A DNA stretch of 16,721 nt, from positions 1 through 16,721 of the IMG/VR virus record IMGVR_UViG_2617270976_000017; one strand, written 5' to 3'. The first letter of the stretch is position 1. The number at the start of each line of letters is the position of its first letter. The position numbers were made by a program, and so were the translations under genes. Origin of the DNA: a virus (taxonomy: Duplodnaviria; Heunggongvirae; Uroviricota; Caudoviricetes). Of this stretch, positions 1 through 15,523 are shown piece by piece. The notes under the pieces are model-generated. The model saw only the letters and a program-made list of their open reading frames with translations. It did not search any database and was not told the DNA's origin.

Positions 1-378
1 CCTGCTGACCATTGTCTGCATGATGTTCAGGATATGAGTACGATTAATCATCCCCGGGCTGACCTGAGCAAAGGGCAGTACGGCTGTGTCGGACAGGGCT
101 TACATATTGCCAAAAAACTGCTTCCGTATATCCCTAATAACGCGGGGATCCTGCTGGTACCATGCTGTCGTGGTGGTTCGGCATTCACCCAGGGCACGGA
201 GGGGACATTCAGCGAGTCCACGGGGGCCAGTCAGGATTCGGCTCGCTGGGGAGTGGGTAAGCCGTTATATCAGGATCTGCTTTTCCGCACGAAGGCAGCA
301 TTGCAGAAAAACCCGAAAAACGTTTTGCTGGCGATATGCTGGATGCAGGGGGAATTCGATATGACGAATGCCAGTTAG
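1..378 (+). CDS. 3' portion of a hypothetical prophage protein; reading frame is open from base 1, so probably 5'-truncated by the window edge
   Basis: Frame 1 has no stop from position 1 to TAG at 376-378; the ORF track starts it at ATG 34 only because that is the first Met. GC-rich like the phage backbone. No family recognised with confidence (a weak impression of an SGNH/esterase-like 'W-x-QGE-x-D' block, not verifiable here). Confidence 0.4.
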   Translation, partial: PADHCLHDVQDMSTINHPRADLSKGQYGCVGQGLHIAKKLLPYIPNNAGILLVPCCRGGSAFTQGTEGTFSESTGASQDSARWGVGKPLYQDLLFRTKAALQKNPKNVLLAICWMQGEFDMTNAS

Positions 379-587
379 TGCTGGTGAGCCTTGACGGGCT
401 GATCTCCTATGCAGCAAAGGTTCATCTCAAAGTAAGACGAACGCTATGACAAACCAAGATTCTATAGACCTATCTGATCTTCGTGGAATGGTCAGTTTTC
501 CAGACAAAAGGTAATCACCATAGTCGTATGGCTATGAATCTTGTTGCTGCAGATAAGCATTTTGTGATTGAAGTGGTCAAATCTCTC

Positions 588-644
588 AAATGCAGTAAAA
601 TGCAGTGCGCTATAATTCAATAACGGAGGGAGTAAGGAGAAGTC
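588..644 (+). promoter_or_regulatory. putative promoter/RBS region for the 645..1265 gene: tandem AAATGCAGT x2 (588-606), TATAAT (611-616), strong Shine-Dalgarno GGAGGG/AAGGAGA (625-640)
   Basis: Perfect -10 hexamer 29 nt upstream of ATG 645; double SD motif 5-15 nt upstream of the ATG; no convincing -35, so promoter call is weak. Confidence 0.3.
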
Positions 645-1265
645 ATGAAAGATCAAGATGTTAGGTTCGCGGTGCATCATAAGCTTTTGAAAGAATCGCA
701 TTTAGATCCAGACTGCCTTGTGGTCGATGAATTTTCCATATCCCTTGGCGCCAGTAGAGCAGACATTGCTGTAATAAATGGTGTTATACACGGGTACGAG
801 CTCAAAAGTGAATATGACTCTTTGGAGCGTTTGCCTCTTCAAATCAAGCATTATTCTTCTGTAATGGACAAGGTTACTCTTGTCGTAGCTGAGAAACACC
901 TTGAGGGAGCATTAAAGTTAATCCCAGGTTGGTGGGGCGTTAAAACGGTTTCTGTTGGGCCAAAAGGCGCCATTCTTATAAAGCACATGCGTGGAGAAAA
1001 GCTTAATCGAAACCATGACACATTGATGCTCGCTCAATTGCTTTGGAAAGATGAATGTATCGACGTACTTGAACGATGGGGCTATTCCAAAGGAATCAAA
1101 AGCAAGCCCCGATTTGAGTTATGGAATATTATTGCGGAAAATATTCCAATAGCGAATCTCAGGCTTGAAGTCAGAACAGCCTTAAAGAAACGCGTAGGCT
1201 GGAAAGTTAAGGCTTGGCAGGCTGAGTCTGCGCCAACCAATAAAGCTGTCTCACGACTAACGTAA
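645..1265 (+). CDS. hypothetical 206-aa protein with a PD-(D/E)xK-like nuclease signature (..RADIAVINGVIHGYELKSE..); accessory (moron) gene
   Basis: Long ORF with strong RBS; AT-richer than the flanking phage structural genes; Asp followed ~12 residues later by E-L-K in hydrophobic beta-strand-like context, as in restriction-endonuclease-fold proteins. Family assignment not possible without HMM search. Confidence 0.65.
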   Translation: MKDQDVRFAVHHKLLKESHLDPDCLVVDEFSISLGASRADIAVINGVIHGYELKSEYDSLERLPLQIKHYSSVMDKVTLVVAEKHLEGALKLIPGWWGVKTVSVGPKGAILIKHMRGEKLNRNHDTLMLAQLLWKDECIDVLERWGYSKGIKSKPRFELWNIIAENIPIANLRLEVRTALKKRVGWKVKAWQAESAPTNKAVSRLT

Positions 1266-2274
1266 TATGGTGCGTATGTGCAACTTTACGCCATTCTTTA
1301 GAGCCGCCAGATTTGTTAGCGCCTAATGATCTTTGGTAAATGTAATCATCCCCCCAACTAAATTTGGAGCCAAAGACTTGATACTCTGGCGAACTAACAA
1401 GGGTAGTACATAAGTTTTTAGTTTGGCCCCATCCATTTCCTTTAACTGCGGTACCTTTTACAAAGATCCATGAGGTATCGTTCGAATATCTCACTGAGAC
1501 ATACTGAGACATGAAGCGTGGGTCTACGCTCGTAATGGTAGAGCTAGCGGTGGGATAATCACTAAAACTTGGCGTTCTTCCATTGCTAAAATTCTGTACT
1601 ACGTACATCCAAAGATCGTATTCATGGCGCGGAATATGATGAACTTGATGTTGCGGTATCCCTGCCTGTGATGCCGGGTATGCGGTTGAAGATAAAATCA
1701 AGTTTCTCCACGGAGCTTGGCCTGATAATGTGTTGACCATGCTTAATGCTTGTTGTTTTAAACTATCAGTTGCGTTTTGAATATCTCCAAAATCAATGAT
1801 TACATCAATTAAACTAGGATGAATATTTAAGTGGTTAACCAGACTTGTGAATTGGTGCCATGTCTGGGGGGTGATAGATATAGCGAGCCCATTGATTAAG
1901 TTGCGTTGAACAGCATGTATATAGTTTGTTGAATATGCGGGAGAAACAACAGGGATAATTTCCTTACCATTTACTCTAGCATCTTGGATACACATATCTA
2001 GAGGATGATGGCGGCTCGAACCATGTTTATCTAAATATTTAACATCCAGCAAAACAGGACGATTGGCTTTCCAGGATGCCGCAAGGTTAATACCGAAGTC
2101 AGATAAGTAAGAACTCAAACTCTTCTTGTAGCATTCGTTTTCATAATCCCAGTCTATGTCTGGAATGGTAATGATCGGAGTAAAACCAGAGAGCGTAGTT
2201 TGATCTAAAAGCATCAGAGATTCATATTCAGCAGGCTTCCATTTCAGCTGTGGATAATATTGATGTTGACTCAT
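1207..2274 (-). CDS. hypothetical 355-aa protein, convergent to and overlapping the 3' end of 645..1265; accessory gene
   Basis: Long minus-strand ORF; ATG at 2274-2272 preceded by a perfect AAGGAG (complement of 2280-2285) with 5-nt spacing; same AT-rich composition as its neighbour. No recognisable lambda homolog. Confidence 0.65.
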   Translation of the reverse strand: MSQHQYYPQLKWKPAEYESLMLLDQTTLSGFTPIITIPDIDWDYENECYKKSLSSYLSDFGINLAASWKANRPVLLDVKYLDKHGSSRHHPLDMCIQDARVNGKEIIPVVSPAYSTNYIHAVQRNLINGLAISITPQTWHQFTSLVNHLNIHPSLIDVIIDFGDIQNATDSLKQQALSMVNTLSGQAPWRNLILSSTAYPASQAGIPQHQVHHIPRHEYDLWMYVVQNFSNGRTPSFSDYPTASSTITSVDPRFMSQYVSVRYSNDTSWIFVKGTAVKGNGWGQTKNLCTTLVSSPEYQVFGSKFSWGDDYIYQRSLGANKSGGSKEWRKVAHTHHITLVVRQLYWLAQTQPAKP

Positions 2275-5133: not shown

Positions 5134-5323
5134 ACTGCAGGCGCTGCGTCAGGCGCGCCTTGATTTATTAACCGGTAAACGGGTGGTGTCTGTCCAGAAA
5201 GATGGTCGCAGAATTGAATATACGGCAGCTTCTCTGGATGAGCTTAACCGGGCGATCAATGATGCGGAGTCGGTACTGGGGACAACCCGCCGTCGCCGTC
5301 GTCCGCTGGGAGTGAGGTTATGA
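5117..5323 (+). CDS. W: head-tail joining / head completion protein (lambda gpW homolog, 68 aa)
   Basis: 68-aa ORF with LLTGKRVVSVQKDGRRIEYTA core matching lambda gpW; overlaps A stop and B start (ATGA) as in lambda. Confidence 0.9.
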   Translation: MVTVAELQALRQARLDLLTGKRVVSVQKDGRRIEYTAASLDELNRAINDAESVLGTTRRRRRPLGVRL

Positions 5324-7029
5324 AACGAACGCCTGTCCTGATTGATGTGAACGGCGTTCCGCTTCGGGAGAGCCTCAGCTACAACGGTGGCGGTGCAGGA
5401 TTTGGCGGGCAAATGGCAGAGTGGTTGCCACCCTCGCAGAGTGCCGATGCGGCCCTGCTGCCCGCGTTGCGTCTGGGGAATGCCCGTGCAGATGATCTGG
5501 TGCGCAATAACGGAATAGCGGCCAATGCGGTGGCCCTGCATAAGGATCACATTGTCGGGCATATGTTTCTGATTAGCTACCGTCCGAACTGGCGCTGGCT
5601 GGGGATGCGGGAGACCGCGGCAAAAAGTTTTGTCGATGAGGTGGAGGCGGCCTGGTCAGAATACGCAGAAGGGATGTTTGGTGAGATCGACGTGGAAGGG
5701 AAACGCACGTTTACGGAATTTATCCGTGAAGGTGTGTGCGTTCATGCGTTTAACGGCGAAATCTTTGTGCAGCCGGTCTGGGATACGGAGAGTACGCAAC
5801 TGTTTCGTACGCGTTTTAAAGCCGTGAGTCCGAAACGGGTGGACACGCCAGGACACGGTATCGGGAACCGTTTTCTGCGGGCCGGTGTGGAGGTTGATCG
5901 ATATGGCCGTGCCGTTGCGTACCATATCTGTGAGGATGATTTTCCTCGCTCCGGGAGTGGACGATGGGAACGGATCCCGCGTGAACTACCCACCGGGCGT
6001 CCGGCCATGCTGCATATTTTCGAGCCGGTGGAGGACGGGCAGACCCGTGGAGCCAATCAGTTTTACAGCGTTATGGAACGGCTGAAGATGCTCGATTCCC
6101 TGCAGGCAACACAGCTTCAGTCGGCCATAGTGAAGGCGATGTATGCAGCGACGATTGAAAGTGACCTTGATACCGAAAAGGCCTTTGAATATATCGCCGG
6201 TGCGCCGCAGGGGCAGAAGGATAATCCGCTTATTAATATTCTGGATAAGTTCTCCACCTGGTATGACACGAATAGCGTGACGCTGGGCGGTGTCAAAATT
6301 CCGCACCTTTTCCCCGGTGATGATCTGAAACTTCAGACCGCGCAGGATTCAGACAATGGATTTTCGGCGCTTGAACAGGCGCTGCTGCGGTATATCGCCG
6401 CCGGTCTTGGCGTTTCCTACGAACAGTTGTCCCGTGATTACTCGAAGGTCAGTTACTCAAGTGCCCGCGCATCCGCCAATGAGTCGTGGCGCTATTTTAT
6501 GGGGCGGCGAAAATTTATTGCGTCCCGGCTGGCCACGCAGATGTTTTCCTGCTGGCTGGAAGAGGCACTTCTTCGGGGGATTATTCGTCCGCCACGGGCA
6601 CGGTTTGATTTTTATCAGGCGCGATCAGCCTGGTCACGGGCTGAGTGGATTGGAGCCGGAAGAATGGCCATTGACGGGCTCAAGGAGGTTCAGGAATCAG
6701 TGATGCGCATTGAGGCCGGACTGAGCACGTATGAGAAAGAGCTGGCGCTGATGGGCGAGGATTATCAGGACATTTTCCGCCAGCAGGTCAGGGAATCTGC
6801 AGAGCGGGAAAAAGCCGGACTCTCACGTCCGGTGTGGATAGCGCAGGCGTATCAGCAGCAGATAGCGGAGAGTCGCAGGCCGGAAGAGGAGACAGTCGCG
6901 GATGAATATGACCAGCCGACGTCCGATATCACGAAGGATAAATGCAGCAAATGCCTGAGCGGCTGTAAGTTTCGCAATAACGTCGGCAACTTTGGCGGCT
7001 TCCTTTCCATTAACAAACTTTCGCAGTAA
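5320..7029 (+). CDS. B: portal protein (lambda gpB homolog) whose last codons are replaced by an in-frame fusion to the 3' end of tail gene L
   Basis: Residues 1-~525 colinear with lambda gpB (GGGAGFGGQ..., FEPVEDGQTRGANQFYSVME..., LRYIAAGLGVSYEQLSR...); the final 44 residues VADEYDQPTSDITKDKCSKCLSGCKFRNNVGNFGGFLSINKLSQ match the C-terminus of lambda gpL. Confidence 0.85.
   Translation: MKRTPVLIDVNGVPLRESLSYNGGGAGFGGQMAEWLPPSQSADAALLPALRLGNARADDLVRNNGIAANAVALHKDHIVGHMFLISYRPNWRWLGMRETAAKSFVDEVEAAWSEYAEGMFGEIDVEGKRTFTEFIREGVCVHAFNGEIFVQPVWDTESTQLFRTRFKAVSPKRVDTPGHGIGNRFLRAGVEVDRYGRAVAYHICEDDFPRSGSGRWERIPRELPTGRPAMLHIFEPVEDGQTRGANQFYSVMERLKMLDSLQATQLQSAIVKAMYAATIESDLDTEKAFEYIAGAPQGQKDNPLINILDKFSTWYDTNSVTLGGVKIPHLFPGDDLKLQTAQDSDNGFSALEQALLRYIAAGLGVSYEQLSRDYSKVSYSSARASANESWRYFMGRRKFIASRLATQMFSCWLEEALLRGIIRPPRARFDFYQARSAWSRAEWIGAGRMAIDGLKEVQESVMRIEAGLSTYEKELALMGEDYQDIFRQQVRESAEREKAGLSRPVWIAQAYQQQIAESRRPEEETVADEYDQPTSDITKDKCSKCLSGCKFRNNVGNFGGFLSINKLSQ
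6895..7029 (+). pseudogene. L: 3' remnant of tail tip gene L (last ~44 codons) fused to B
   Basis: C-terminal gpL sequence including the Cys-rich CSKCLSGC block; immediately followed by K as in lambda gene order L-K-I-J. Confidence 0.7.
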
Positions 7030-7033
7030 TCCC

Positions 7034-7777
7034 ATGACAGAGACAGAATCAGCGATTCTGGCGCACGCCCGGCGATGTGCGCCAGCGGAGTCGTGCGGCT
7101 TCGTGGTGAGAGCGCCGGAGGGGGAAAGATATTTCCCCGGCGTGAATATCTCCGGTGAGCCGGAGGATTATTTCCGTATGTCGCCGGAAGACTGGCTGCA
7201 GGCAGAAATGCAGGGTGAGATTGTGGCGCTGGTCCACAGCCACCACGGTGGTCTGCCCTGGCTGAGTGAGGCCGACCGGCGGCTGCAGGTGCAGAGTGAT
7301 TTGCCGTGGTGGCTGGTCTGCCGGGGGACGATTCACAAGTTCCGCTGTGTGCCGCATCTCACCGGGCGGCGCTTTGAGCACGGGGTGACGGACTGTTACA
7401 CGCTGTTCCGGGATGCTTATCATCTGGCGGGGATTGAGATGCCGGATTTTCATCGCGGGGATGACTGGTGGCGTCACGGTCAGAATCTCTATCTGGATAA
7501 TCTGGAAGCCACAGGGCTGTATCAGGTGCCGTTGTCATCAGCACAACCGGGCGATGTGCTGCTGTGCTGCTTTGGTTCATCGGTGCCGAATCATGCCGCC
7601 ATTTACTGTGGTGACGGCGAGCTGCTGCACCATATTCCTGAACAACTGAGCAAACGAGAGAGGTATACCGACAAATGGCAGCGACGCACACACTCCCTCT
7701 GGCGTCACCAGGCATGGCACGCATCTGCCTTTACGGGGATTTACAACGATTTGGCCGCCGCATCGATCTGCGTGTGA
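7034..7777 (+). CDS. K: tail assembly protein K (lambda gpK homolog)
   Basis: MTETESAILAHARRCAPAESCGFVV...HSHH... ORF; overlaps I by ~100 nt as K and I do in lambda. An internal Met at 7178 corresponds to the shorter classical K annotation. Confidence 0.85.
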   Translation: MTETESAILAHARRCAPAESCGFVVRAPEGERYFPGVNISGEPEDYFRMSPEDWLQAEMQGEIVALVHSHHGGLPWLSEADRRLQVQSDLPWWLVCRGTIHKFRCVPHLTGRRFEHGVTDCYTLFRDAYHLAGIEMPDFHRGDDWWRHGQNLYLDNLEATGLYQVPLSSAQPGDVLLCCFGSSVPNHAAIYCGDGELLHHIPEQLSKRERYTDKWQRRTHSLWRHQAWHASAFTGIYNDLAAASICV

Positions 7778-8316
7778 AAACGGGGGCCGAAGCCATCCGG
7801 GCGCTGGCCATGCAGATCCCGGCGTTTCGTCAGAAGCTGAGCGACGGCTGGTATCAGGTACGCATTGCCGGGCGTGATACAGGTGAAACGGAATTATCAG
7901 CCCGTCTTAATGAACCGCTGGCAAATGGTGCTGTGATCCATATCGTGCCGCGTCTGGCAGGAGCCAAAAGTGGCGGTGTGTTTCAGGCTGTGCTGGGGGC
8001 GGCTGTTATGGCGGTTGCTATATGGATGCCGGGGGTAGGAATTATGGCGAGTAATCTGCTGTTTTCTCTCGGTGCCAGTATGACGCTTGGCGGTGTTGCA
8101 CAGATGCTGGCCCCTAAACCCAAAACCCCCCGCACACAGACAACGGATAACGGCAAACAGAACACCTATTTCTCTTCACTGGATAACATGGTTGCCCAGG
8201 GCAATGTTCTGCCTGTTCTGTACGGTGAAATGCGCGTGGGGTCACGTGTGGCATCTCAGGAGATCAGCACGGCAGATGAAGGGGATGGTGGTCAGGTTGT
8301 GGTAATTGGGCGGTAA
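7675..8316 (+). CDS. I: tail assembly protein I (lambda gpI homolog)
   Basis: MAATHTLPLASPGMARICLYGDLQRFGRRIDLRVKTGAEAIRALA... and C-terminal ...NVLPVLYGEMRVGSRV.SQEISTADEGDGGQVVVIGR match lambda gpI. Confidence 0.9.
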   Translation: MAATHTLPLASPGMARICLYGDLQRFGRRIDLRVKTGAEAIRALAMQIPAFRQKLSDGWYQVRIAGRDTGETELSARLNEPLANGAVIHIVPRLAGAKSGGVFQAVLGAAVMAVAIWMPGVGIMASNLLFSLGASMTLGGVAQMLAPKPKTPRTQTTDNGKQNTYFSSLDNMVAQGNVLPVLYGEMRVGSRVASQEISTADEGDGGQVVVIGR

Positions 8317-8388
8317 TATTATTTACTCATGTTCTAACTGATTTAATATTTATATCGAACACTGATAATTATTCTATTGGTTAGCTAT

Positions 8389-8727
8389 ATGAACAAAACG
8401 ATTTTATTCTGCACGATTATTGCCTTAACAGGATGTAAATCTTTGGATTACGTAAAATCCGGAAAACCTGTAATGGAAGGTAATTCATTAAAAAATATTG
8501 ATGAATTGTCAGGCTGCATATCCAGACAATGGGCTGGTAATGGAACACCTATAACATCCCTTCCTATTGAGAATGGGGTAAGCCTTTTAGTTCCACAGGC
8601 TATGGGGGGATATGATGTTGTGCTTGATATCAAAAAAGCAGGAAATGGCAGTAGTTTTACTCTTTATGAACGTGTACCAGCATTAACGCCAAAAATTTTT
8701 GCTGATAGTGTTAATGCATGTAAATAA
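8389..8727 (+). CDS. small predicted lipoprotein (signal peptide MNKTILFCTIIALTG-C, lipobox LTGC); accessory gene inserted between I and J
   Basis: ORF with N-terminal hydrophobic segment ending in L-T-G-C; markedly AT-rich relative to flanking I and J; followed by a hairpin terminator. Start placed at ATG 8389; weak RBS. Confidence 0.6.
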   Translation: MNKTILFCTIIALTGCKSLDYVKSGKPVMEGNSLKNIDELSGCISRQWAGNGTPITSLPIENGVSLLVPQAMGGYDVVLDIKKAGNGSSFTLYERVPALTPKIFADSVNACK

Positions 8728-8750
8728 TAGTTAATCCTGCTGTAACTCAT

Positions 8751-8780
8751 GAGCCGCCTTTTGGGCGGCTTTGTTGTTTA
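8751..8780 (+). terminator. rho-independent terminator-like hairpin (GAGCCGCC-TTTT-GGGCGGCT) plus T-rich tail
   Basis: 8-bp GC-rich stem (one mismatch) with 4-nt loop followed by TTGTTGTTT, directly after the lipoprotein stop. Confidence 0.55.
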
Positions 8781-8793
8781 TGGAGTGTGAGGA

Positions 8794-10186
8794 ATGGGTA
8801 AAGGAAGCAGTAAGGGGCATACCCCGCGCGAAGCGAAGGACAACCTGAAATCCACGCAATTACTGAGTGTGATCGATGCCATCAGCGAAGGGCCGATTGA
8901 AGGTCCGGTGGATGGATTAAAAAGCGTGCTGCTGAACAGTACACCGGTGCTGGACAGTGAGGGGAATACCAACATCTCCGGTGTCACGGTGGTGTTCCGG
9001 GCAGGTGAGCAGGAGCAGACACCGCCGGAGGGATTTGAATCCTCCGGTTCCGAGACGGTGCTGGGTACGGAAGTGAAATACGACACGCCGATCACCCGGA
9101 CCATCACGTCTGCAAACATCGACCGTCTGCGCTTTACCTTCGGTGTGCAGGCTCTGGTGGAAACCACCTCAAAGGGGGACCGGAATCCGTCGGAAGTCCG
9201 CCTGCTGGTTCAGATACAACGTAACGGTGGCTGGGTGACGGAAAAAGACATCACCATTAAGGGCAAAACCACCTCGCAGTATCTGGCCTCGGTGGTGGTG
9301 GGTAACCTGCCGCCGCGCCCGTTTAATATCCGGATGCGCAGAATGACGCCGGACAGCACCACAGACCAGCTGCAGAACAAAACGCTCTGGTCGTCATACA
9401 CCGAAATCATCGATGTGAAACAGTGCTATCGGTGCCGGTATTGAGAATACGCCAGCAGGAATGCAGAGTCAGGTGCTGCTGGCGGCAGACAGGATTGCGA
9501 TGATTAATCCTGCGAATGGCAACACAAAGCCGATGTTTGTTGGTCAGGGCGATCAGATATTTATGAATGAAGTGTTCCTGAAATATCTGACGGCTCCCAC
9601 CATTACCAGCGGCGGTAATCCTCCGGCATTTTCCCTGACACCGGACGGGCGGCTGACGGCGAAAAATGCCGATATCAGCGGTAACGTGAATGCGAACTCC
9701 GGGACGCTCAACAACGTCACGATTAACGAGAACTGTCGGGTTCTGGGAAAATTGTCCGCGAACCAGATTGAAGGCGATCTCGTTAAAACAGTGGGCAAAG
9801 CTTTCCCCCGGGACTCCCGTGCACCGGAGCGGTGGCCATCAGGAACCATTACCGTCAGGGTTTATGACGATCAGCCGTTTGACCGGCAGATTGTTATTCC
9901 GGCGGTGGCATTCAGCGGCGCTAAACATGAGAAAGAGCATACTGATATTTACTCCTCATGCCGTCTGATAGTGCGGAAAAACGGTGCTGAAATTTATAAC
10001 CGTACCGCGCTGGATAATACGCTGATTTACAGTGGTGTTATTGATATGCCTGCCGGTCACGGTCACATGACACTGGAGTTTTCGGTGTCAGCATGGCTGG
10101 TAAATAACTGGTATCCCACAGCAAGTATCAGCGATTTGCTGGTTGTGGTGATGAAGAAAGCCACTGCAGGCATCACGATTAGCTGA
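8794..10186 (+). pseudogene. J: tail tip/host specificity gene J, disrupted: N-terminal ~210 codons (8794..9444) joined out of frame to the C-terminal ~240 codons (9461..10186); central ~2 kb missing
   Basis: 8794..9444 matches lambda gpJ residues 1-~212 nearly residue for residue and then stops (..VKQCYRCRY*); 9461..10186 in another frame matches the gpJ C-terminal region (..[32 protein letters not shown]..) with a divergent extreme C-terminus. Confidence 0.8.
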
Positions 10187-11004: not shown

Positions 11005-13911
11005 ATGACAGTAAAAATTTCTGGCGTGCTTAAAGATGGCACAGGAAAACCAGTACAGAACTGCACCATTGTGCTGAAGGCCAGACGAACCAGCAGCACG
11101 GTGGTGGTGAACACGGTGGCCTCTGAAAATCCGGATGAAGCCGGACGTTACAGCATGGATGTTGAGCATGGTCAGTACAGCGTCACCCTGCTGGTTGAAG
11201 GTTTTCCGCCTTCACATGCCGGGACCATTACCGTCTATGAAGGTTCCAGACCAGGTACGCTGAATGATTTTCTCGGTGCCATGACGGAGGATGATGTCCG
11301 ACCGGAGGCACTGCGCCGCTTTGAGCAGATGGTAGAAGAGGTGTCACGTAACGCCTCCGCGGTTGCACAGAATACGGCAGCCGCGAAAAAATCAGTCAGC
11401 GATGCCAGTGCATCAGCCAGCGAGGCGGCAACTCATGCAACCGATGCTGCAGCCTCAGCACGTGCCGCCAGCACGTCAGCCGGACAGGCCGCGTCGTCGG
11501 CTCAGTCAGCGTCTTCCAGCGCAGGAACGGCATCGACAAAGGCCCGTGAAGCAGCAAAAAGTGCTGCTGCTGCAGAGTCATCAAAAAGCGCGGCAGCTAC
11601 CAGCGCCAGTGCCGCGAAAACGTCAGAAACGAATGCCGCAGCATCACAAAAATCGGCAGCCACTTCTGCATCCACAGCGACCACGAAGGCGTCAGAAGCT
11701 GCCACCTCGGCACGGGGTGCGGCGGCCTCAAAAGAGGCAGCGAAATCTTCAGAAACGAATGCATCATCAAGTGCCAGTAGTGCAGCTTCCTCGGCAACGG
11801 CGGCAGGAAATTCCGCGAAGGCGGCAAAAACGTCCGAGACGAACGCTAAGTCTTCTGAAACAGCAGCGGGACAGAGCGCCTCAGCTGCGGCAGGTTCAAA
11901 AACAGCGGCTGCATTATCTGCCAGTGCCGCGTCAACAAGTGCCGGGCAGGCCTCAGCCAGTGCCACCGCCGCCGGAAAATCGGCAGAAAGCGCCGCATCA
12001 TCCGCTTCAACAGCCACAACGAAGGCTGGCAAAGCCACTGAGCAAGCCACTGCAGCAGCGAGGTCTGCTTCTGCAGCAAAAACCTCTGAAACAAATGCAA
12101 AGACTTCAGCAGACAATGCTGCTTCCTCTAAGGCGGCAGCCGCATCGTCAGCCAGTTCAGCGGCGTCATCGGCATCATCTGCGTCTGCTTCAAAAGATGA
12201 GGCGACCAGACAAGCGTCAGCAGCGAAAGGTAGTGCCACGACAGCAACAACGAAAGCATCAGAGGCAGCTGGTAGTGCGACGGCGGCAGCTCAGAGCAAA
12301 AGTACGGCGGAATCCGCGGCAACGCGCGCCGAGACAGCAGCAAAACGGGCAGAGGATATTGCATCCGCCGTGGCGCTGGAGGATGCGAGCACGACGAAAA
12401 AGGGGATAGTACAGCTCAGCAGTGCGACCAACAGCACTTCCGAGTCACTGGCGGCAACGCCAAAAGCGGTTAAGGCGGTAATGGGTGAAACGAACAAGAA
12501 AGCGCCCTTAAATAGTCCTGCACTGACCGGAACGCCAACAACACCAACTGCGCGACAGGGAACGAATAATACCCAAATCGCAAGCACGGCTTATGTTATG
12601 GCTGCGATCGCTGCCCTCGTGGACTCGTCGCCTGACGCACTGAATACGCTGAACGAGCTGGCTGCGGCGTTGGGCAACGACCCGAATTTTGCGACCACCA
12701 TGACTAGCGCGCTTGCGGGTAAGCAACCGAAAGATGCCACCCTGACGGCGCTGGCCGGGCTTGCTACTGCGGCAGACAGGTTTCCGTATTTTACGGGGAA
12801 TGATGTTGCCAGTCTGGCAATCCTGACAAAAGTTGGGCGGGATATTCTTGCGAAATCGACCGTTGCCGCCGTTATCGAATACCTCGGTTTACAGGAAACG
12901 GTAAACAAGGCTGGTAACGCCGTTCAGCGTTCCGGCGATAAAATGACCGGAGAACTGAAAATTGGCACGGTGAATGCGCTGCGAATTTTCAATGATGCCT
13001 TCGGTCTTATTTTCCGTCGTTCAGAAGATTTTCTTCATTTCATTCCGACGGCTGAAGGACAAGGCGAAAACGGTGATATCGGCCCATTAAGGCCATTCGC
13101 TATAAATCTGAGAACAGGTGCTATATCTGTCAGCCACGGGGCCAAAATTGATGGTGGGCTGGCGCTTGGTACAGATAACGCACTGGGCGGTAATTCCATT
13201 ACTCTCGGAGATAACGACACTGGTATTAAACAGGGCGGCGACGGTGTCCTTTTATTCTATTCAAATGGACAACTGGCATTTGGGCTTCAACCCGCATCTG
13301 CTGATTTTTATAAGCGGGTTGCATATATTCATCAGGGAATAATTCCTGATGGAAGTGGCGCATTTGCAGACCAGTTGAATAATGCCACCGCGCCTTTTGT
13401 TCAGACGCAGTTTGCCTGGAATCCCACTCCTGGTGGTCATTACGTGCCGATAGTTAAGGGCTTGTCCATTCGCAATGGACAGGGCTATCCCGGCGCGGTC
13501 AGCTTTGGGTATTTACTGACAGAACAGTATGGATTTCCGGTTCCATGTATTCATATGCGTGGCGATGGAGGTAATGATGCTTTATGGTATTTTAACCCGA
13601 ACGATAAATCCTTTATTTCACCGGGTGCTCTTATTGCGGGTGGCGTCCGTTATAACACCGATGGAAATATATTTGGTGGGTGCTGGGGTTCAAACTTAAA
13701 TGATTACCTGAATAGTTCTTTTATCAGAAATGTGCGTCTGGGAGGCAGACGTTCTGACACATTATATCGCGGAGGACTTTGCGAACCAGGTAATGGTCAT
13801 GTGACAACAGGATTGCAAATTATTGGTGAGGTTGATGGAGATGACTGGATGGTGTCACGACCACTACAAAAATACATTTCTGGTAACTGGTATAACGTTG
13901 AACAGGCATAG
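11005..13911 (+). CDS. stf: side tail fibre protein (Stf family), 968 aa, with Ala/Ser-rich repetitive shaft
   Basis: N-terminus MTVKISGVLKDGTGKP.QNCTIVLKARRTSSTVV and ...YSVTLLVEGFPPSHAGTITVYE match the conserved Stf N-domain; long A/S-rich repeat region; C-terminal tip ...PLQKYISGNWYNVEQA. Confidence 0.9.
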   Translation: MTVKISGVLKDGTGKPVQNCTIVLKARRTSSTVVVNTVASENPDEAGRYSMDVEHGQYSVTLLVEGFPPSHAGTITVYEGSRPGTLNDFLGAMTEDDVRPEALRRFEQMVEEVSRNASAVAQNTAAAKKSVSDASASASEAATHATDAAASARAASTSAGQAASSAQSASSSAGTASTKAREAAKSAAAAESSKSAAATSASAAKTSETNAAASQKSAATSASTATTKASEAATSARGAAASKEAAKSSETNASSSASSAASSATAAGNSAKAAKTSETNAKSSETAAGQSASAAAGSKTAAALSASAASTSAGQASASATAAGKSAESAASSASTATTKAGKATEQATAAARSASAAKTSETNAKTSADNAASSKAAAASSASSAASSASSASASKDEATRQASAAKGSATTATTKASEAAGSATAAAQSKSTAESAATRAETAAKRAEDIASAVALEDASTTKKGIVQLSSATNSTSESLAATPKAVKAVMGETNKKAPLNSPALTGTPTTPTARQGTNNTQIASTAYVMAAIAALVDSSPDALNTLNELAAALGNDPNFATTMTSALAGKQPKDATLTALAGLATAADRFPYFTGNDVASLAILTKVGRDILAKSTVAAVIEYLGLQETVNKAGNAVQRSGDKMTGELKIGTVNALRIFNDAFGLIFRRSEDFLHFIPTAEGQGENGDIGPLRPFAINLRTGAISVSHGAKIDGGLALGTDNALGGNSITLGDNDTGIKQGGDGVLLFYSNGQLAFGLQPASADFYKRVAYIHQGIIPDGSGAFADQLNNATAPFVQTQFAWNPTPGGHYVPIVKGLSIRNGQGYPGAVSFGYLLTEQYGFPVPCIHMRGDGGNDALWYFNPNDKSFISPGALIAGGVRYNTDGNIFGGCWGSNLNDYLNSSFIRNVRLGGRRSDTLYRGGLCEPGNGHVTTGLQIIGEVDGDDWMVSRPLQKYISGNWYNVEQA
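11350..12370 (+). repeat. intragenic tandem-repeat region of stf encoding the Ala/Ser-rich shaft (recurring ..AAKTSETNA.. units)
   Basis: Repeated nucleotide blocks such as gcgaaaacgtcagaaacgaatgc / gcaaaaacgtccgagacgaacgc / gcaaaaacctctgaaacaaatgc recur at ~11615, ~11745, ~11825, ~12075. Confidence 0.6.
12872..12897 (+). other. 26-bp recombination (crossover) site of a Gin/Pin/Cin/Hin-type inversion system, inside stf
   Basis: TTATCGAATACCTCGGTTTACAGGAA closely resembles the gix/pix-type crossover sites as I recall them and is an inverted copy (22/26) of the site at 15951..15976. Confidence 0.65.
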
Positions 13912-13926
13912 CCATCAGGAGAATAT

Positions 13927-14454
13927 ATGCAACATCTGAAAAATATTACCGCCGGAAACCCCAAAACCATTGAGCAGTATCAGCTTACGAAAAAAGCTGG
14001 CGTTATCTGGCTATATACAGAAGACGGTAAAAACTGGTATGACGAATTAAAAAACTTTCAGGATGATACTTTAAAAATAGCTTATGACCAGAAGGGGATT
14101 ATTCGTTGTATTGAGAAAGACGTATCAATGCTTAACCCTGACGGGTTAAGTGTTGTTGAGTTACCGAATATAACAGCCAACCGTCGCGCCGATATCTCGG
14201 GAAACTGGAAGTTTCTGGATGGTAAAGTAGTAAAGCGGGAATATACAAAACAGGAACTGCAACAGCAGGCAGAGTTACAAAAAGCCGCTTTGCTTTCCGA
14301 AGCGGAGTCTGTGATTCAACCGCTGGAACGTGCTGTCAGACTGAATATGGCAACTGATGAGGAACGCACACGACTGGAATCATGGGAACGCTACAGCGTT
14401 ATGGTCAGCCGTGTGGATACTGCAAAGCCTGAATGGCCACAGAAACCAGAATAA
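13927..14454 (+). CDS. tfa: tail fibre assembly protein (Tfa family)
   Basis: 175-aa ORF directly after stf with good RBS (CAGGAGA); N-terminal half matches the conserved Tfa pattern and is paralogous to the inverted ORF at 14485..15018. Confidence 0.85.
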
Positions 14455-14465
14455 CAACAAATTAA

Positions 14466-14485
14466 GGCCCGTACGGGCCTTTTCT
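14466..14485. terminator. bidirectional terminator hairpin (GGCCCG-TA-CGGGCC) between the convergent tfa genes
   Basis: Perfect 6-bp GC stem with T-rich flanks on both strands, located between the stop codons of the two convergent tfa genes. Confidence 0.5.
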
Positions 14486-15018
14486 TATTCTGGTGGTTCC
14501 GGGAATGTTACAGGAAGAACCGAGGTATCAGTTGTCTCAACCTGTTGCACGTATCGCATCCAGTTCATCAGTTGCTGTCTGTCTGAATCAGTGATAATCC
14601 CCAAAGTAAGCTGTGTTTGCCAGAACTGCGTTTTTTCTCTGGCCTGCTGTAATAATATTTTTTTCTGGTTTTCCGTCTGTAGGCGCAACTCTTCTTCGGT
14701 ATATACACGTTTAATGACTGCGCCATCTTTAAACATCCATTTACCTGAGTCGTCAGCACGCCGGTTGGCGGTAATATCAGGAATCTCAACGACGCTATAA
14801 CCTTCAGGGTTAAGTGTGGAGGCATCTTTGGTTATGGCAACAATAATATTATTTTCATCGTAAACAATCTTTATGGTGTCTGGCTGAAAGTTTTTCACTT
14901 CCTCATACCAGTTTTTTCCGTCCTCAGAGTAAAGCCAGATAACTCCGTGTTTCTTTGTTAACTCATACTGTTCCAGTGTTTTAGCATTACCCGCTTTTAT
15001 GTTCTTTAAGTGCATCAT
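14485..15018 (-). CDS. tfa: tail fibre assembly protein, second copy in inverted orientation (Tfa')
   Basis: [45 protein letters not shown]... is clearly paralogous to the + strand Tfa ([45 protein letters not shown]...). Confidence 0.85.
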
Positions 15019-15019
15019 A

Positions 15020-15523
15020 TTAAACGCTCGCTACATTATACCAGGTGCCATTTATATACTTTTGAACGGGTCTGTAATAAACGCCCGCTATATTATCGGC
15101 AGAGTTAGACCCTGTATCCTGAACATTAATACCAGACAATACATGACCTGAAGGGCACTGGAAATTCCATGTTTGCCAGTTGTTCACTCCATAATATTGC
15201 TGTGAACCAAGTCGAACATCTTTCACATAACGGGAATCAAAGTTACCGTAATCCGAGGGGTTAACACGCCCTGTAATATTTATGGTTTTATTACTTTGAA
15301 TGCTTCCGGAGACAAAGCGCATAACATGGACGTTATTAGCATAAACATCCAGATTACCATCGCCATTTTGTTTAAAGCCCGTGTCATTATCACCCAATAC
15401 AATCGAATTACCGCCAAGAGCACTGGATGTTCCGATACCCAGTGCACCATTCAGTTGACCACCAGATAACGGCAGTGATAGAAACAGAAGCCACTGGAGC
15501 ACCTCAAAAACACCATCATACAC
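15020..15523 (-). CDS. stf: alternative side tail fibre C-terminal (receptor-binding) segment, inverted orientation (StfE-like fragment)
   Basis: Contains ..[22 protein letters not shown].. and C-terminal ..[16 protein letters not shown], paralogous to the stf tip (..ALGGNSITLGDNDTGIKQGGDG.. / ..PLQKYISGNWYNVEQA); stop abuts tfa' start. Confidence 0.75.

What the first reader, a model, noticed from the sequence alone, without database searches (positions are those of the whole stretch)
8317..8790. Small lipoprotein gene inserted between tail genes I and J
In lambda, I and J are separated by about 60 bp; here they are about 480 bp apart. The gap contains an AT-rich ORF with a classical lipoprotein signal (MNKTILFCTIIALTG-C) followed by its own hairpin terminator. 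Phage-encoded lipoproteins at tail-gene boundaries (Cor, Llp, Bor-type) are known to act in superinfection exclusion by blocking outer-membrane receptors or in serum resistance, so this could be an uncharacterised exclusion or virulence factor. The residue after the lipid-modified Cys is Lys, which would favour outer-membrane sorting under the +2 rule.
Basis: partly seen in the sequence, partly recalled or inferred. Interest (0 to 1): 0.6.

Follow-up and report, generated by a model that had tools for sequence, protein, structure and literature searches.

The report
Uncharacterised prophage outer-membrane lipoprotein cargo gene
A real, conserved 112-residue lipoprotein gene has been added between tail genes I and J of a decaying lambda-like prophage; it belongs to an unstudied phage-borne family whose function is untested and may be to alter the cell envelope against other phages.

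Summary
Between I (stop at 8316) and J (start at 8794) lies a 477-bp AT-rich stretch (GC 0.36 against about 0.56). It carries an intact ORF, 8389-8727, with a canonical lipoprotein signal (LTG|C, Lys at +2).

One detail is wrong. The hairpin at 8751-8771 is not specific to the insert, because lambda and mEp332 have a homologous hairpin in their short I-J spacer.

The protein is RefSeq WP_001332187.1, annotated "hypothetical protein". It matches phrog_914 (unknown function) and has no Pfam or PADLOC hit.

- **Distribution:** the cassette is 98-100% identical in 337 of 5426 complete E. coli genomes.
- **Family:** about 125 clusters of roughly 112-residue lipoproteins share three invariant cysteines.
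- **Location:** relatives occupy different accessory slots in other prophages: I|J, K|I, T|tape-measure, beside a cI-like repressor, and an early-region island.
- **Relatives:** it is unrelated in sequence to Cor, Llp, Bor and Lpp010. Its predicted fold is nearest Flpp3 and the BamC N-domain.
- **Receptor link:** the same cassette precedes at least four J receptor-binding types, and most J genes of the window's type lack it. A Cor-style blocker matched to the phage's own receptor is therefore not supported.

Most likely it is an envelope-acting accessory protein, probably for superinfection exclusion, but this is untested.

The parts
7675..8316 (+). Tail assembly gene I, the left flank. Homology with lambda and mEp332 runs up to its stop codon.
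   Evidence: ORF list. Annotated as 'tail assembly protein' in E. coli 042. Alignment A3.
8317..8388 (+). AT-rich 72-nt leader of the insert. It has no clear Shine-Dalgarno sequence and only weak sigma-70-like matches, for example TTAATA-15-GATAAT ending at 8369.
   Evidence: Sequence. Promoter scans. Absent from lambda and mEp332.
8389..8727 (+). Lipoprotein ORF of 112 aa plus stop, identical to WP_001332187.1 and matching phrog_914. The mature protein is about 97 aa, with conserved Cys43 (8515-8517) and Cys111 (8719-8721), a likely disulfide pair.
   Evidence: AlphaFold2 model with mean pLDDT 83.7.
8389..8436 (+). Signal peptide (residues 1-15) ending in the lipobox L-T-G, plus the lipid-modified Cys16 codon (8434-8436). 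Residue +2 is Lys (8437-8439).
   Evidence: Read from the sequence. C16 is invariant in 54 of 54 aligned members. 128 of 135 members have a lipobox and none has Asp at +2.
8751..8781 (+). GC-rich hairpin (GAGCCGCC-TTT-TGGGCGGCTT) with a T-rich tail, lying just before the J ribosome-binding site. It is homologous to the hairpin in the I-J spacer of lambda and mEp332, so it belongs to the junction and is not specific to the insert.
   Evidence: All cassettes in other slots end in the same hairpin / T-run / SD arrangement.
8794..9444 (+). N-terminal fragment of the tail-tip gene J, the right flank. It equals residues 1-212 of E. coli 042 J. The rest of J is deleted up to 9461-10186, which equals residues 919-1159.

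Best explanation
The region holds an accessory cargo gene of the moron type, added at the I-J junction of a lambdoid prophage tail operon. It encodes a small lipoprotein.

**Predicted fate of the protein (inferred, not shown).** It is exported and lipid-modified at Cys16. Because residue +2 is Lys, it is then sorted to the inner leaflet of the outer membrane. There a compact alpha/beta domain, stabilised by a Cys43-Cys111 disulfide, sits within a few residues of the membrane anchor.

**Most likely role (inferred).** It acts on the cell envelope of the lysogen or the infected cell to interfere with incoming phages, which would be superinfection exclusion. It would do so by binding an outer-membrane component from the periplasmic side. 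The target is probably not matched to the phage's own J receptor-binding domain.

**Expression (inferred).** It is probably made at least from the late polycistronic transcript. Expression in the lysogen is possible but not shown.

**What is shown here.** The gene, its signal, its family, its mobility between slots and its purifying selection.

**Confidence.** About 0.9 that it is a genuine accessory lipoprotein gene. About 0.35-0.4 for the exclusion mechanism; the number given below is for the mechanism.
For: - **Real gene and family:** phrog_914 matches over the full length at E = 7e-33. 125 representative clusters of about 112 aa were found, with invariant C16, C43 and C111. Of 64 E. coli copies, 60 are intact and synonymous changes outnumber non-synonymous ones 11 to 6.
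- **Accessory status:** the cassette is in 337 of 5426 E. coli genomes, while the flanking I/J sequence is in 4095. GC is 0.36 against 0.56.
- **Mobility between slots:** homologs lie at I|J and at K|I in Klebsiella, Kluyvera and phages Fraca and LMessi. They also lie between T and the tape-measure gene in Enterobacter, Citrobacter and Salmonella, which is the slot of the HK97 gp15 exclusion moron (PMC3594210). One lies directly downstream of a cI-like HTH repressor on the same strand in a Burkholderia prophage, and one in an early-region island on the opposite strand.
- **Outer-membrane targeting:** the lipobox is present and no family member has Asp at +2.
- **Short tether:** the ordered structure begins around residues 19-21.
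- **Precedent:** small lipoproteins encoded in siphophage tail modules exclude phages. Examples are Cor, Llp, and Lpp021 and Lpp010 of the mEpimmI phages, where Lpp010 excludes lambda (PMC11893012; PMC9586334).
Against: - There are no experimental data for any family member, and no literature hit.
- PADLOC finds no defence model.
- The fold is generic and says nothing about function; the function of Flpp3 itself is unknown.
- No clear promoter was found, so expression in a lysogen is unproven.
- Some distant members are chromosomal and not obviously on prophages, so the ancestral role may be housekeeping.
- Location in a tail module is only circumstantial evidence.
Confidence: 0.38

Rival explanations
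1. A Cor/Llp-type blocker of the phage's own receptor. The lipoprotein would bind the periplasmic face of the outer-membrane protein recognised by this prophage's J protein. That would prevent superinfection by the same phage type and stop progeny being lost on cell debris.
For: - It is an outer-membrane lipoprotein next to the host-specificity gene J.
- Precedents exist in Cor, Llp and Lpp010 (PMC11893012; PMC9586334).
- If it is made with the late genes, as the K|I copies suggest (they start 32 nt after the K stop with a strong SD), it would be present at lysis, like Llp.
Against: - The 98-100% identical cassette precedes at least 4 J C-terminal types (28, 6, 3 and 2 of 39 full-length J genes), one of them unrelated to the rest.
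- The window's J type occurs at 95% identity or more in at least 2275 records, while the cassette is in only 337 genomes.
- Fraca has both cor and a homolog of this gene.
- The known blockers lie just downstream of the end of the gene that encodes the receptor-binding domain. This gene lies 3.4 kb or more upstream of that end.
- There is no sequence relationship to Cor, Llp or Lpp010 beyond the signal peptide.
Confidence: 0.15
2. A lysogenic-conversion factor that benefits the host rather than excluding phages. Possible roles are serum or complement resistance as with Bor/Iss, envelope robustness, adhesion, or immune modulation.
For: - The cassette occurs in pathogenic lineages: EAEC 042, O104:H4 C227-11, NMEC IHE3034 and CE10, and APEC.
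- The nearest solved fold is the Francisella virulence lipoprotein Flpp3.
- It neighbours lom, a known conversion gene.
- It remains intact in the window's heavily deleted prophage.
Against: - It does not match Pfam Lambda_Bor or any other family.
- The similarity to Flpp3 is at fold level only (6-9% identity), and Flpp3's function is unknown.
- The strain list was not tested for enrichment in pathogens.
- Homologs also occur in isolated phages and in environmental genera.
Confidence: 0.2
3. A function in the phage's own lytic cycle. Examples would be modulating the NlpC/P60 peptidase K or host cell-wall enzymes, helping lysis, or helping tail function.
For: - It is always co-oriented with the late tail genes.
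- The K|I copies look translationally embedded in the operon.
- There is no clear promoter of its own.
Against: - It is absent from most lambdoid tail modules, including lambda and mEp332, so it is not needed for assembly.
- It is exported, so it cannot join cytoplasmic tail assembly.
- Its position relative to K varies.
- It is not spanin-like, being a globular alpha/beta domain.
Confidence: 0.07
4. Functionless passenger DNA: an ORF kept only by hitch-hiking in recombining tail modules.
For: - No function is known.
- The E. coli copy has a weak ribosome-binding site and no clear promoter.
- 3 of 64 copies are frameshifted.
Against: - The family is broad, with invariant cysteines and lipobox.
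- Synonymous variation exceeds non-synonymous variation.
- It has been acquired independently at at least five kinds of site.
Confidence: 0.05

Closest known systems
HK97 gp15 moron (Cumby et al. 2012; reviewed in PMC3594210)
   Same: - Both are extra small envelope-protein genes inserted between conserved tail genes, with composition unlike their neighbours.
- The Enterobacter-type homologs occupy exactly the gp15 slot, between the tail assembly chaperone and tape-measure genes.
- Both have bacterial chromosomal relatives.
   Different: - gp15 is an inner-membrane YebO-like protein. This one is a lipoprotein predicted to go to the outer membrane, and the sequences are unrelated.
- The function of gp15 is demonstrated; this one is untested.
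- The classic moron has its own promoter and terminator. Here the promoter is unclear and the hairpin is shared with lambda.
Cor (phi80/N15/HK022 type) and T5 Llp, FhuA-blocking lipoproteins
   Same: All are small phage-encoded lipoproteins with disulfide-forming cysteines, encoded in or near the tail and host-range genes of siphophages.
   Different: - There is no homology beyond the signal peptide.
- The mature domain is about 97 aa and alpha/beta, against roughly 60 aa for Cor and Llp.
- The gene lies upstream of J rather than downstream of the receptor-binding gene.
- It is not linked to one J receptor-binding type.
- It co-occurs with cor in phage Fraca.
Lpp010 and Lpp021 exclusion lipoproteins of mEpimmI phages (PMC11893012)
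   Same: They are lipoproteins encoded within the structural gene cluster of temperate coliphages with J-type tail tips. Lpp010 excludes phages that use LamB, including lambda.
   Different: - Lpp010 is 82 aa, lies on the opposite strand just downstream of J, and is unrelated in sequence.
- The Lpp types track receptor use, whereas this cassette does not track the J C-terminus.
Lambda Bor / Iss
   Same: A prophage-encoded outer-membrane lipoprotein of about 100 aa.
   Different: There is no match to Pfam Lambda_Bor at E <= 1. Bor lies in the lysis region and is expressed from the prophage.
Francisella Flpp3 (DUF3568) and the BamC N-terminal domain
   Different: Identity is 6-10%, there is no Pfam DUF3568 hit, and the fold is generic, also matching DUF302, KA1 and TBP-like domains. 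No function can be transferred.

Membership tests
Bacterial lipoproteins (Lgt/Lsp/Lnt substrates; PROSITE PS51257-type signal) | A positively charged N-region, a hydrophobic core, and a lipobox [LVI][ASTVI][GAS]C with the Cys within roughly residues 15-35. | tested here: met
   The sequence is MNKTILFCTIIALTG|C, with K3 and lipobox L-T-G-C at residues 13-16. C16 is invariant in the family, and 128 of 135 members have a lipobox. No SignalP or LipoP tool was available, so the rule was applied by hand.
Bacterial lipoproteins (Lgt/Lsp/Lnt substrates; PROSITE PS51257-type signal) | Actual acylation, globomycin-sensitive processing, and outer-membrane location. | not testable with these tools
   This needs labelling and fractionation experiments. 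The only indication is the +2 rule: Lys here, and no Asp at +2 in 128 members.
PHROG 914 (phage protein family, unknown function) | A significant full-length match to the family HMM. | tested here: met
   E = 7.3e-33, residues 1-112 against profile positions 1-118 of 118.
Moron (Juhala et al. 2000; as described in PMC3594210) | An extra gene between genes that are adjacent in related phages, with a different base composition. | tested here: met
   Lambda and mEp332 have a 60-70 bp I-J spacer, against 477 bp here. GC is 0.36 against about 0.56.
Moron (Juhala et al. 2000; as described in PMC3594210) | Its own promoter, allowing expression from the repressed prophage. | tested here: inconclusive
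   The tool scan found no promoter on the + strand. A looser scan gave only 8-9 of 12 matches with a 15-nt spacer in AT-rich DNA. The K|I homologs start 32 nt after the K stop codon. The Burkholderia homolog follows a cI-like gene.
Moron (Juhala et al. 2000; as described in PMC3594210) | Its own terminator. | tested here: inconclusive
   A hairpin with a T-rich tail is present at 8751-8781, but it is homologous to the lambda and mEp332 I-J spacer hairpin. All other cassettes also end in such a hairpin.
Cor superinfection-exclusion lipoproteins | Sequence homology of the mature domain. | tested here: not met
   BLASTP and a family HMM against Fraca Cor align only residues of about 2-32, the signal peptide. 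The PHROG scan returned only phrog_914.
Cor superinfection-exclusion lipoproteins | FhuA-dependent exclusion. | not testable with these tools
   This needs plating and adsorption assays.
T5 Llp | Sequence or fold similarity to Llp (PDB 8A60 chain B). | tested here: not met
Lambda Bor / Iss (Pfam Lambda_Bor) | A match to the Pfam model. | tested here: not met
   No Pfam family matched at E <= 1.
mEpimmI Lpp010-type exclusion lipoproteins | Sequence homology, and a position just downstream of J. | tested here: not met
   The Lpp010 sequence aligns only in the signal peptide. Its gene lies downstream of J on the opposite strand.
Flpp3 / DUF3568 | A sequence-family match (Pfam DUF3568). | tested here: not met
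Known anti-phage defence systems (PADLOC-DB 2.0) | A match to any defence-protein model. | tested here: not met
   No family matched at E <= 1.

The most novel reading that the evidence does not exclude
PHROG 914 would be a new class of phage-borne outer-membrane lipoprotein that blocks infection independently of the receptor. It would act at a step shared by J-type siphophages, for example by stopping the tail tip or tape-measure protein from crossing the outer membrane and periplasm. This would explain why it travels with tail-tip and tape-measure genes (the T|H, K|I and I|J slots) but not with any one J receptor-binding domain, and why it coexists with cor.
Probability: 0.15. Interest if true: 0.7.

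Novelty: new member of a known kind. Interest (0 to 1): 0.4.

Why it matters
- **Scale:** the exact protein was seen on at least 1000 contigs (the counter's cap), and the cassette is in about 6% of complete E. coli genomes. These include the O104:H4 outbreak strain, EAEC 042 and neonatal-meningitis strains. Yet it has no name, no Pfam family and no publication.
- **If it excludes phages:** it would add a fourth unrelated family of lipoproteins to the exclusion factors encoded in tail modules. It would also be relevant to phage-therapy host range in clinical E. coli, Klebsiella and Enterobacter.
- **Evolution:** one gene family recurs at several different junctions of the tail operon, each time ending in the same hairpin / T-run / SD arrangement. 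This is a clean example for studying how cargo is slotted into late operons.
- **If it does nothing measurable:** it is simply one more hypothetical moron gene.

Tried and rejected
**Searches that found nothing useful**
- Pfam, NCBIfam and PADLOC gave no informative match. The only NCBIfam hit was to the VirB7 signal peptide.
- A PDB sequence-profile search matched only signal peptides.
- Rfam found no RNA family in the window.
- Literature searches for the accession and the PHROG id found nothing.
- Owen et al. 2020 (PMC7067206), on prophage transcriptomes, contained nothing on this gene.
- A profile search with the 54-sequence alignment returned no annotated relatives. The one label, 'YceK' from JGI, is probably a signal-peptide artefact.
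- The wide alignment A4 was too divergent for locus scans. The genome-contig scan with A2 returned a single locus, from Kluyvera.

**Readings considered and rejected**
- o-spanin: the protein is globular, not short and proline-rich.
- Tail structural or assembly protein: it is exported, and it is absent from most lambdoid phages.
- An own-receptor blocker co-inherited with the J receptor-binding domain: the linkage test failed.
- The TTG at 8377 as the start codon: RefSeq and the homolog alignment support the ATG at 8389.

Full report
**What is in the sequence**

Tail gene I ends at 8316 and J starts at 8794. In lambda the same two genes are 60 bp apart: I ends at 15444 and J starts at 15505. 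The 477-bp gap here is AT-rich, with GC 0.34-0.37 in 300-nt windows against 0.54-0.62 on either side.

The gap holds one substantial ORF on the + strand. The mechanical ORF list starts it at a TTG at 8377. RefSeq and all homologs start at the ATG at 8389, which gives 112 residues.

The N-terminus MNKTILFCTIIALTG|CKS has a Lys in the N-region, an uncharged hydrophobic core and the lipobox L-T-G-C, with Cys at position 16. This meets the PROSITE lipoprotein rule applied by hand; no SignalP or LipoP tool was available. Residue +2 is Lys.

**The hairpin**

A 9-bp GC-rich stem with a T-rich tail lies at 8751-8781. Its fold z-score against shuffles is -2.7.

Aligning the junction with lambda and phage mEp332 shows two things. 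Homology stops exactly at the I stop codon, and it resumes just upstream of this hairpin. Both insert-free phages carry a homologous hairpin (AAACCGCCTGCGGGCGGTTT, then a T-run, then the J Shine-Dalgarno sequence).

The inserted DNA is therefore about 8317-8746, and the terminator-like hairpin belongs to the I-J junction, not specifically to the insert. Homologous cassettes at other positions also all end in a GC hairpin, a T-run and the ribosome-binding site of the next tail gene. This could be a shared 3' boundary. I did not pursue it.

**Promoter**

The consensus scan found no sigma-70-like site on the + strand. A looser scan of my own found only 8-9 of 12 matches with sub-optimal spacing, as expected in AT-rich DNA. 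There is no clear Shine-Dalgarno sequence before the ATG.

In the Klebsiella and Kluyvera type, the gene starts 32 nt after the K stop codon with a strong AAGGAG-like site. That looks like simple co-translation from the late mRNA. Autonomous expression in the lysogen is therefore unproven for this copy.

**Is it a real gene?**

Yes, on four grounds.

- It matches phrog_914 ('unknown function') over its full length at E = 7e-33.
- An exhaustive profile search of 1.84 billion representatives found 125 clusters at E <= 1e-3. Nearly all are 105-125 residues long.
- An alignment of 54 of them has three invariant columns: C16 (the lipid site), C43 and C111. P27, K35, W48 and G63 are nearly invariant.
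- Of 135 members of suitable length, 128 have a recognisable lipobox and none has Asp at +2. Of those 128, 112 have exactly three cysteines in the mature part.

Among 64 E. coli copies, 60 are intact, three are frameshifted and one is cut by a contig end. The intact alleles differ at 11 synonymous and 6 non-synonymous codon variants. Non-synonymous sites are roughly three times more numerous, so this indicates purifying selection (a rough count, since the alleles are not independent).

**Distribution**

- The 433-bp insert is present at 98-100% identity in 337 of 5426 complete E. coli genomes. The flanking I/J sequence is in 4095.
- Carriers include EAEC 042, O104:H4 C227-11, IHE3034, CE10 and APEC strains.
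- In these genomes it sits in apparently complete lambdoid prophages with different head modules and side-fibre genes, always between I and J. It is annotated 'hypothetical protein' WP_001332187.1.
- The exact protein was seen on at least 1000 contigs.
- No isolated phage in the GenBank phage set carries this DNA. Only two, Fraca and LMessi, encode a distant (about 30%) homolog.

**Position in other elements**

This was the most informative result. Homologs occupy several different accessory slots.

- **I|J:** all 58 E. coli IMG/VR loci.
- **K|I:** Klebsiella, Kluyvera, phages Fraca and LMessi, and several IMG/VR contigs.
- **Between tail chaperone T and the tape-measure gene:** Enterobacter, Citrobacter and Salmonella prophages. 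This is the slot of the HK97 gp15 exclusion moron (PMC3594210).
- **Directly downstream of a cI-like HTH repressor, same strand:** a Burkholderia gladioli prophage.
- **A small island on the opposite strand, among early replication genes**.

Some distant members are chromosomal with no obvious phage context. This is the signature of mobile cargo that serves the cell or the infection, not a structural or assembly component.

**Structure**

AlphaFold2 on a 12-sequence alignment gave mean pLDDT 83.7 and pTM 0.76. The model is an alpha/beta domain with two helices packed on a five-stranded antiparallel sheet. It becomes ordered within about five residues of the lipid Cys.

This fold is generic and transfers no function. 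The short tether does imply that the domain works at the periplasmic face of the outer membrane. That is an inference from the model.

**Comparison with known exclusion or conversion lipoproteins**

- Pfam gives no hit, so the protein is not Bor/Iss. PADLOC gives none either.
- The PDB profile search touches T5 Llp (8A60_B) only in the signal peptide, at E = 1.6.
- I took Cor from phage Fraca and Lpp010 from mEp010. Lpp010 was experimentally shown to exclude LamB-using phages, including lambda (PMC11893012). BLASTP and a family HMM align both only over the signal peptide.

This is therefore a separate family.

**Testing the 'blocks its own receptor' idea**

Cor, Llp and Lpp010 lie immediately next to the end of the gene that encodes the receptor-binding domain, and they track receptor use. 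Four observations show that the linkage expected of an own-receptor blocker is absent here.

- I extracted J from 39 loci that carry the near-identical cassette. Their last 200 residues fall into four groups (28, 6, 3 and 2 loci). The groups are about 50-68% identical to each other, and one is unrelated to the rest.
- The window's J C-terminal type is the commonest in E. coli. It occurs at 95% identity or more in at least 2275 records, far more than the 337 genomes with the cassette.
- Fraca carries cor as well as the homolog.
- In other genera the gene lies several genes upstream of J.

This does not exclude receptor blocking, because different receptor-binding domains can use one receptor.

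**Most likely mechanism**

Taking together the outer-membrane lipoprotein signal, the short tether, the cargo-like mobility, the location beside a repressor in one prophage and in the gp15 slot in others, and the experimental precedents, I favour one reading. The protein is an envelope-acting accessory protein that interferes with incoming phages from the periplasmic face of the outer membrane. Its target is not tied to the J type of the carrier.

I put this at about 0.38. The own-receptor variant gets about 0.15. A host-benefit conversion factor (serum resistance, envelope or virulence) gets about 0.2. A role in the phage's own lytic cycle gets about 0.07. Functionless passenger DNA gets about 0.05. 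None of these is tested. That the region holds a genuine, selected accessory lipoprotein gene I put at about 0.9.

**Context of this particular copy**

The window's prophage is a remnant. ORF 5320-7029 joins a lambda-type portal to the last 46 profile positions of tail protein L. J is reduced to residues 1-212 and 919-1159 of the E. coli 042 protein. The lipoprotein ORF is nevertheless identical to the 042 allele.

**Verdict**

The kind of element, a small envelope-protein cargo gene in a siphophage tail operon, is well known. The claimed analogy to Cor, Llp and Bor fails on sequence, on position and on linkage to the receptor-binding domain. Interest is moderate: the family is widespread, unnamed and easy to test, but nothing here would surprise a phage geneticist.

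Noticed in passing
window 5320-7029 and 8794-10186: The prophage is a deletion remnant. One ORF fuses a lambda-family portal (residues 29-397) to the C-terminal end of tail protein L (residues 525-567), so the head and tail-shaft genes are gone. J is split into fragments that equal residues 1-212 and 919-1159 of E. coli 042 J. The lipoprotein ORF between them is intact.
   Followed up: partly
window 8751-8781; L004 (lambda I-J spacer); L002, L006, L010, L013, L093 downstream of the homologs: Lambda's insert-free I-J spacer holds a hairpin homologous to the one after the cassette. Cassettes in the K|I and T|H slots end in the same arrangement: a GC hairpin, a T-run, and an ATGGAG or ATGGGG ribosome-binding site for the next gene. 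This may be a common 3' boundary, a landing site, or a scar of cassette loss.
   Followed up: partly
L083 2051-6929 (IMG/VR contig 2836662228_000003): A 4.9-kb island lies between K and I. It holds an Arc-like ORF, three ORFs that look like KilA-N or antirepressor proteins, an HTH protein, the lipoprotein homolog, and a second, apparently different 149-aa lipoprotein (MMKKLAIIGFAALVLSGC...). These labels are my reading of the translations; none was checked with a family search.
   Followed up: no
L010 5975-6003 (Enterobacter-type T|H copy): The Shine-Dalgarno sequence GGAGG of the homolog could pair with an upstream CCTCC (aaCCTCCttacttctGGAGGtgtgaaaATG). This suggests a possible translational control hairpin.
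   Followed up: no
L095 6125-7342 (Burkholderia gladioli prophage): A family member lies directly downstream of a cI-like HTH_3 repressor gene on the same strand, the classic place for genes expressed in the lysogen. A reverse-transcriptase/bAvd cassette of the diversity-generating-retroelement type lies a few kb further on.
   Followed up: no
window 34-2274: Upstream of the terminase gene Nu1 there are three features: a fragment of a SASA-family carbohydrate esterase (34-378), an ORF with no Pfam match (645-1265), and a Pfam 'Beta_protein' (PF14350) gene on the minus strand (1207-2274). This may be cargo at the prophage end.
   Followed up: no
window 13927-15523: After the side tail fibre gene (11005-13911) and the next ORF on the same strand (13927-14454, not checked), a tail-fibre assembly gene (Caudo_TAP, 14485-15018) and an adjoining ORF with no Pfam match (15020-15523) lie in the opposite orientation. 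This resembles an invertible host-range segment.
   Followed up: no
E. coli genome collection: The window's J C-terminal (receptor-binding) type is very common. It occurs at 95% identity or more in at least 2275 E. coli records, with up to 11 copies per genome.
   Followed up: partly
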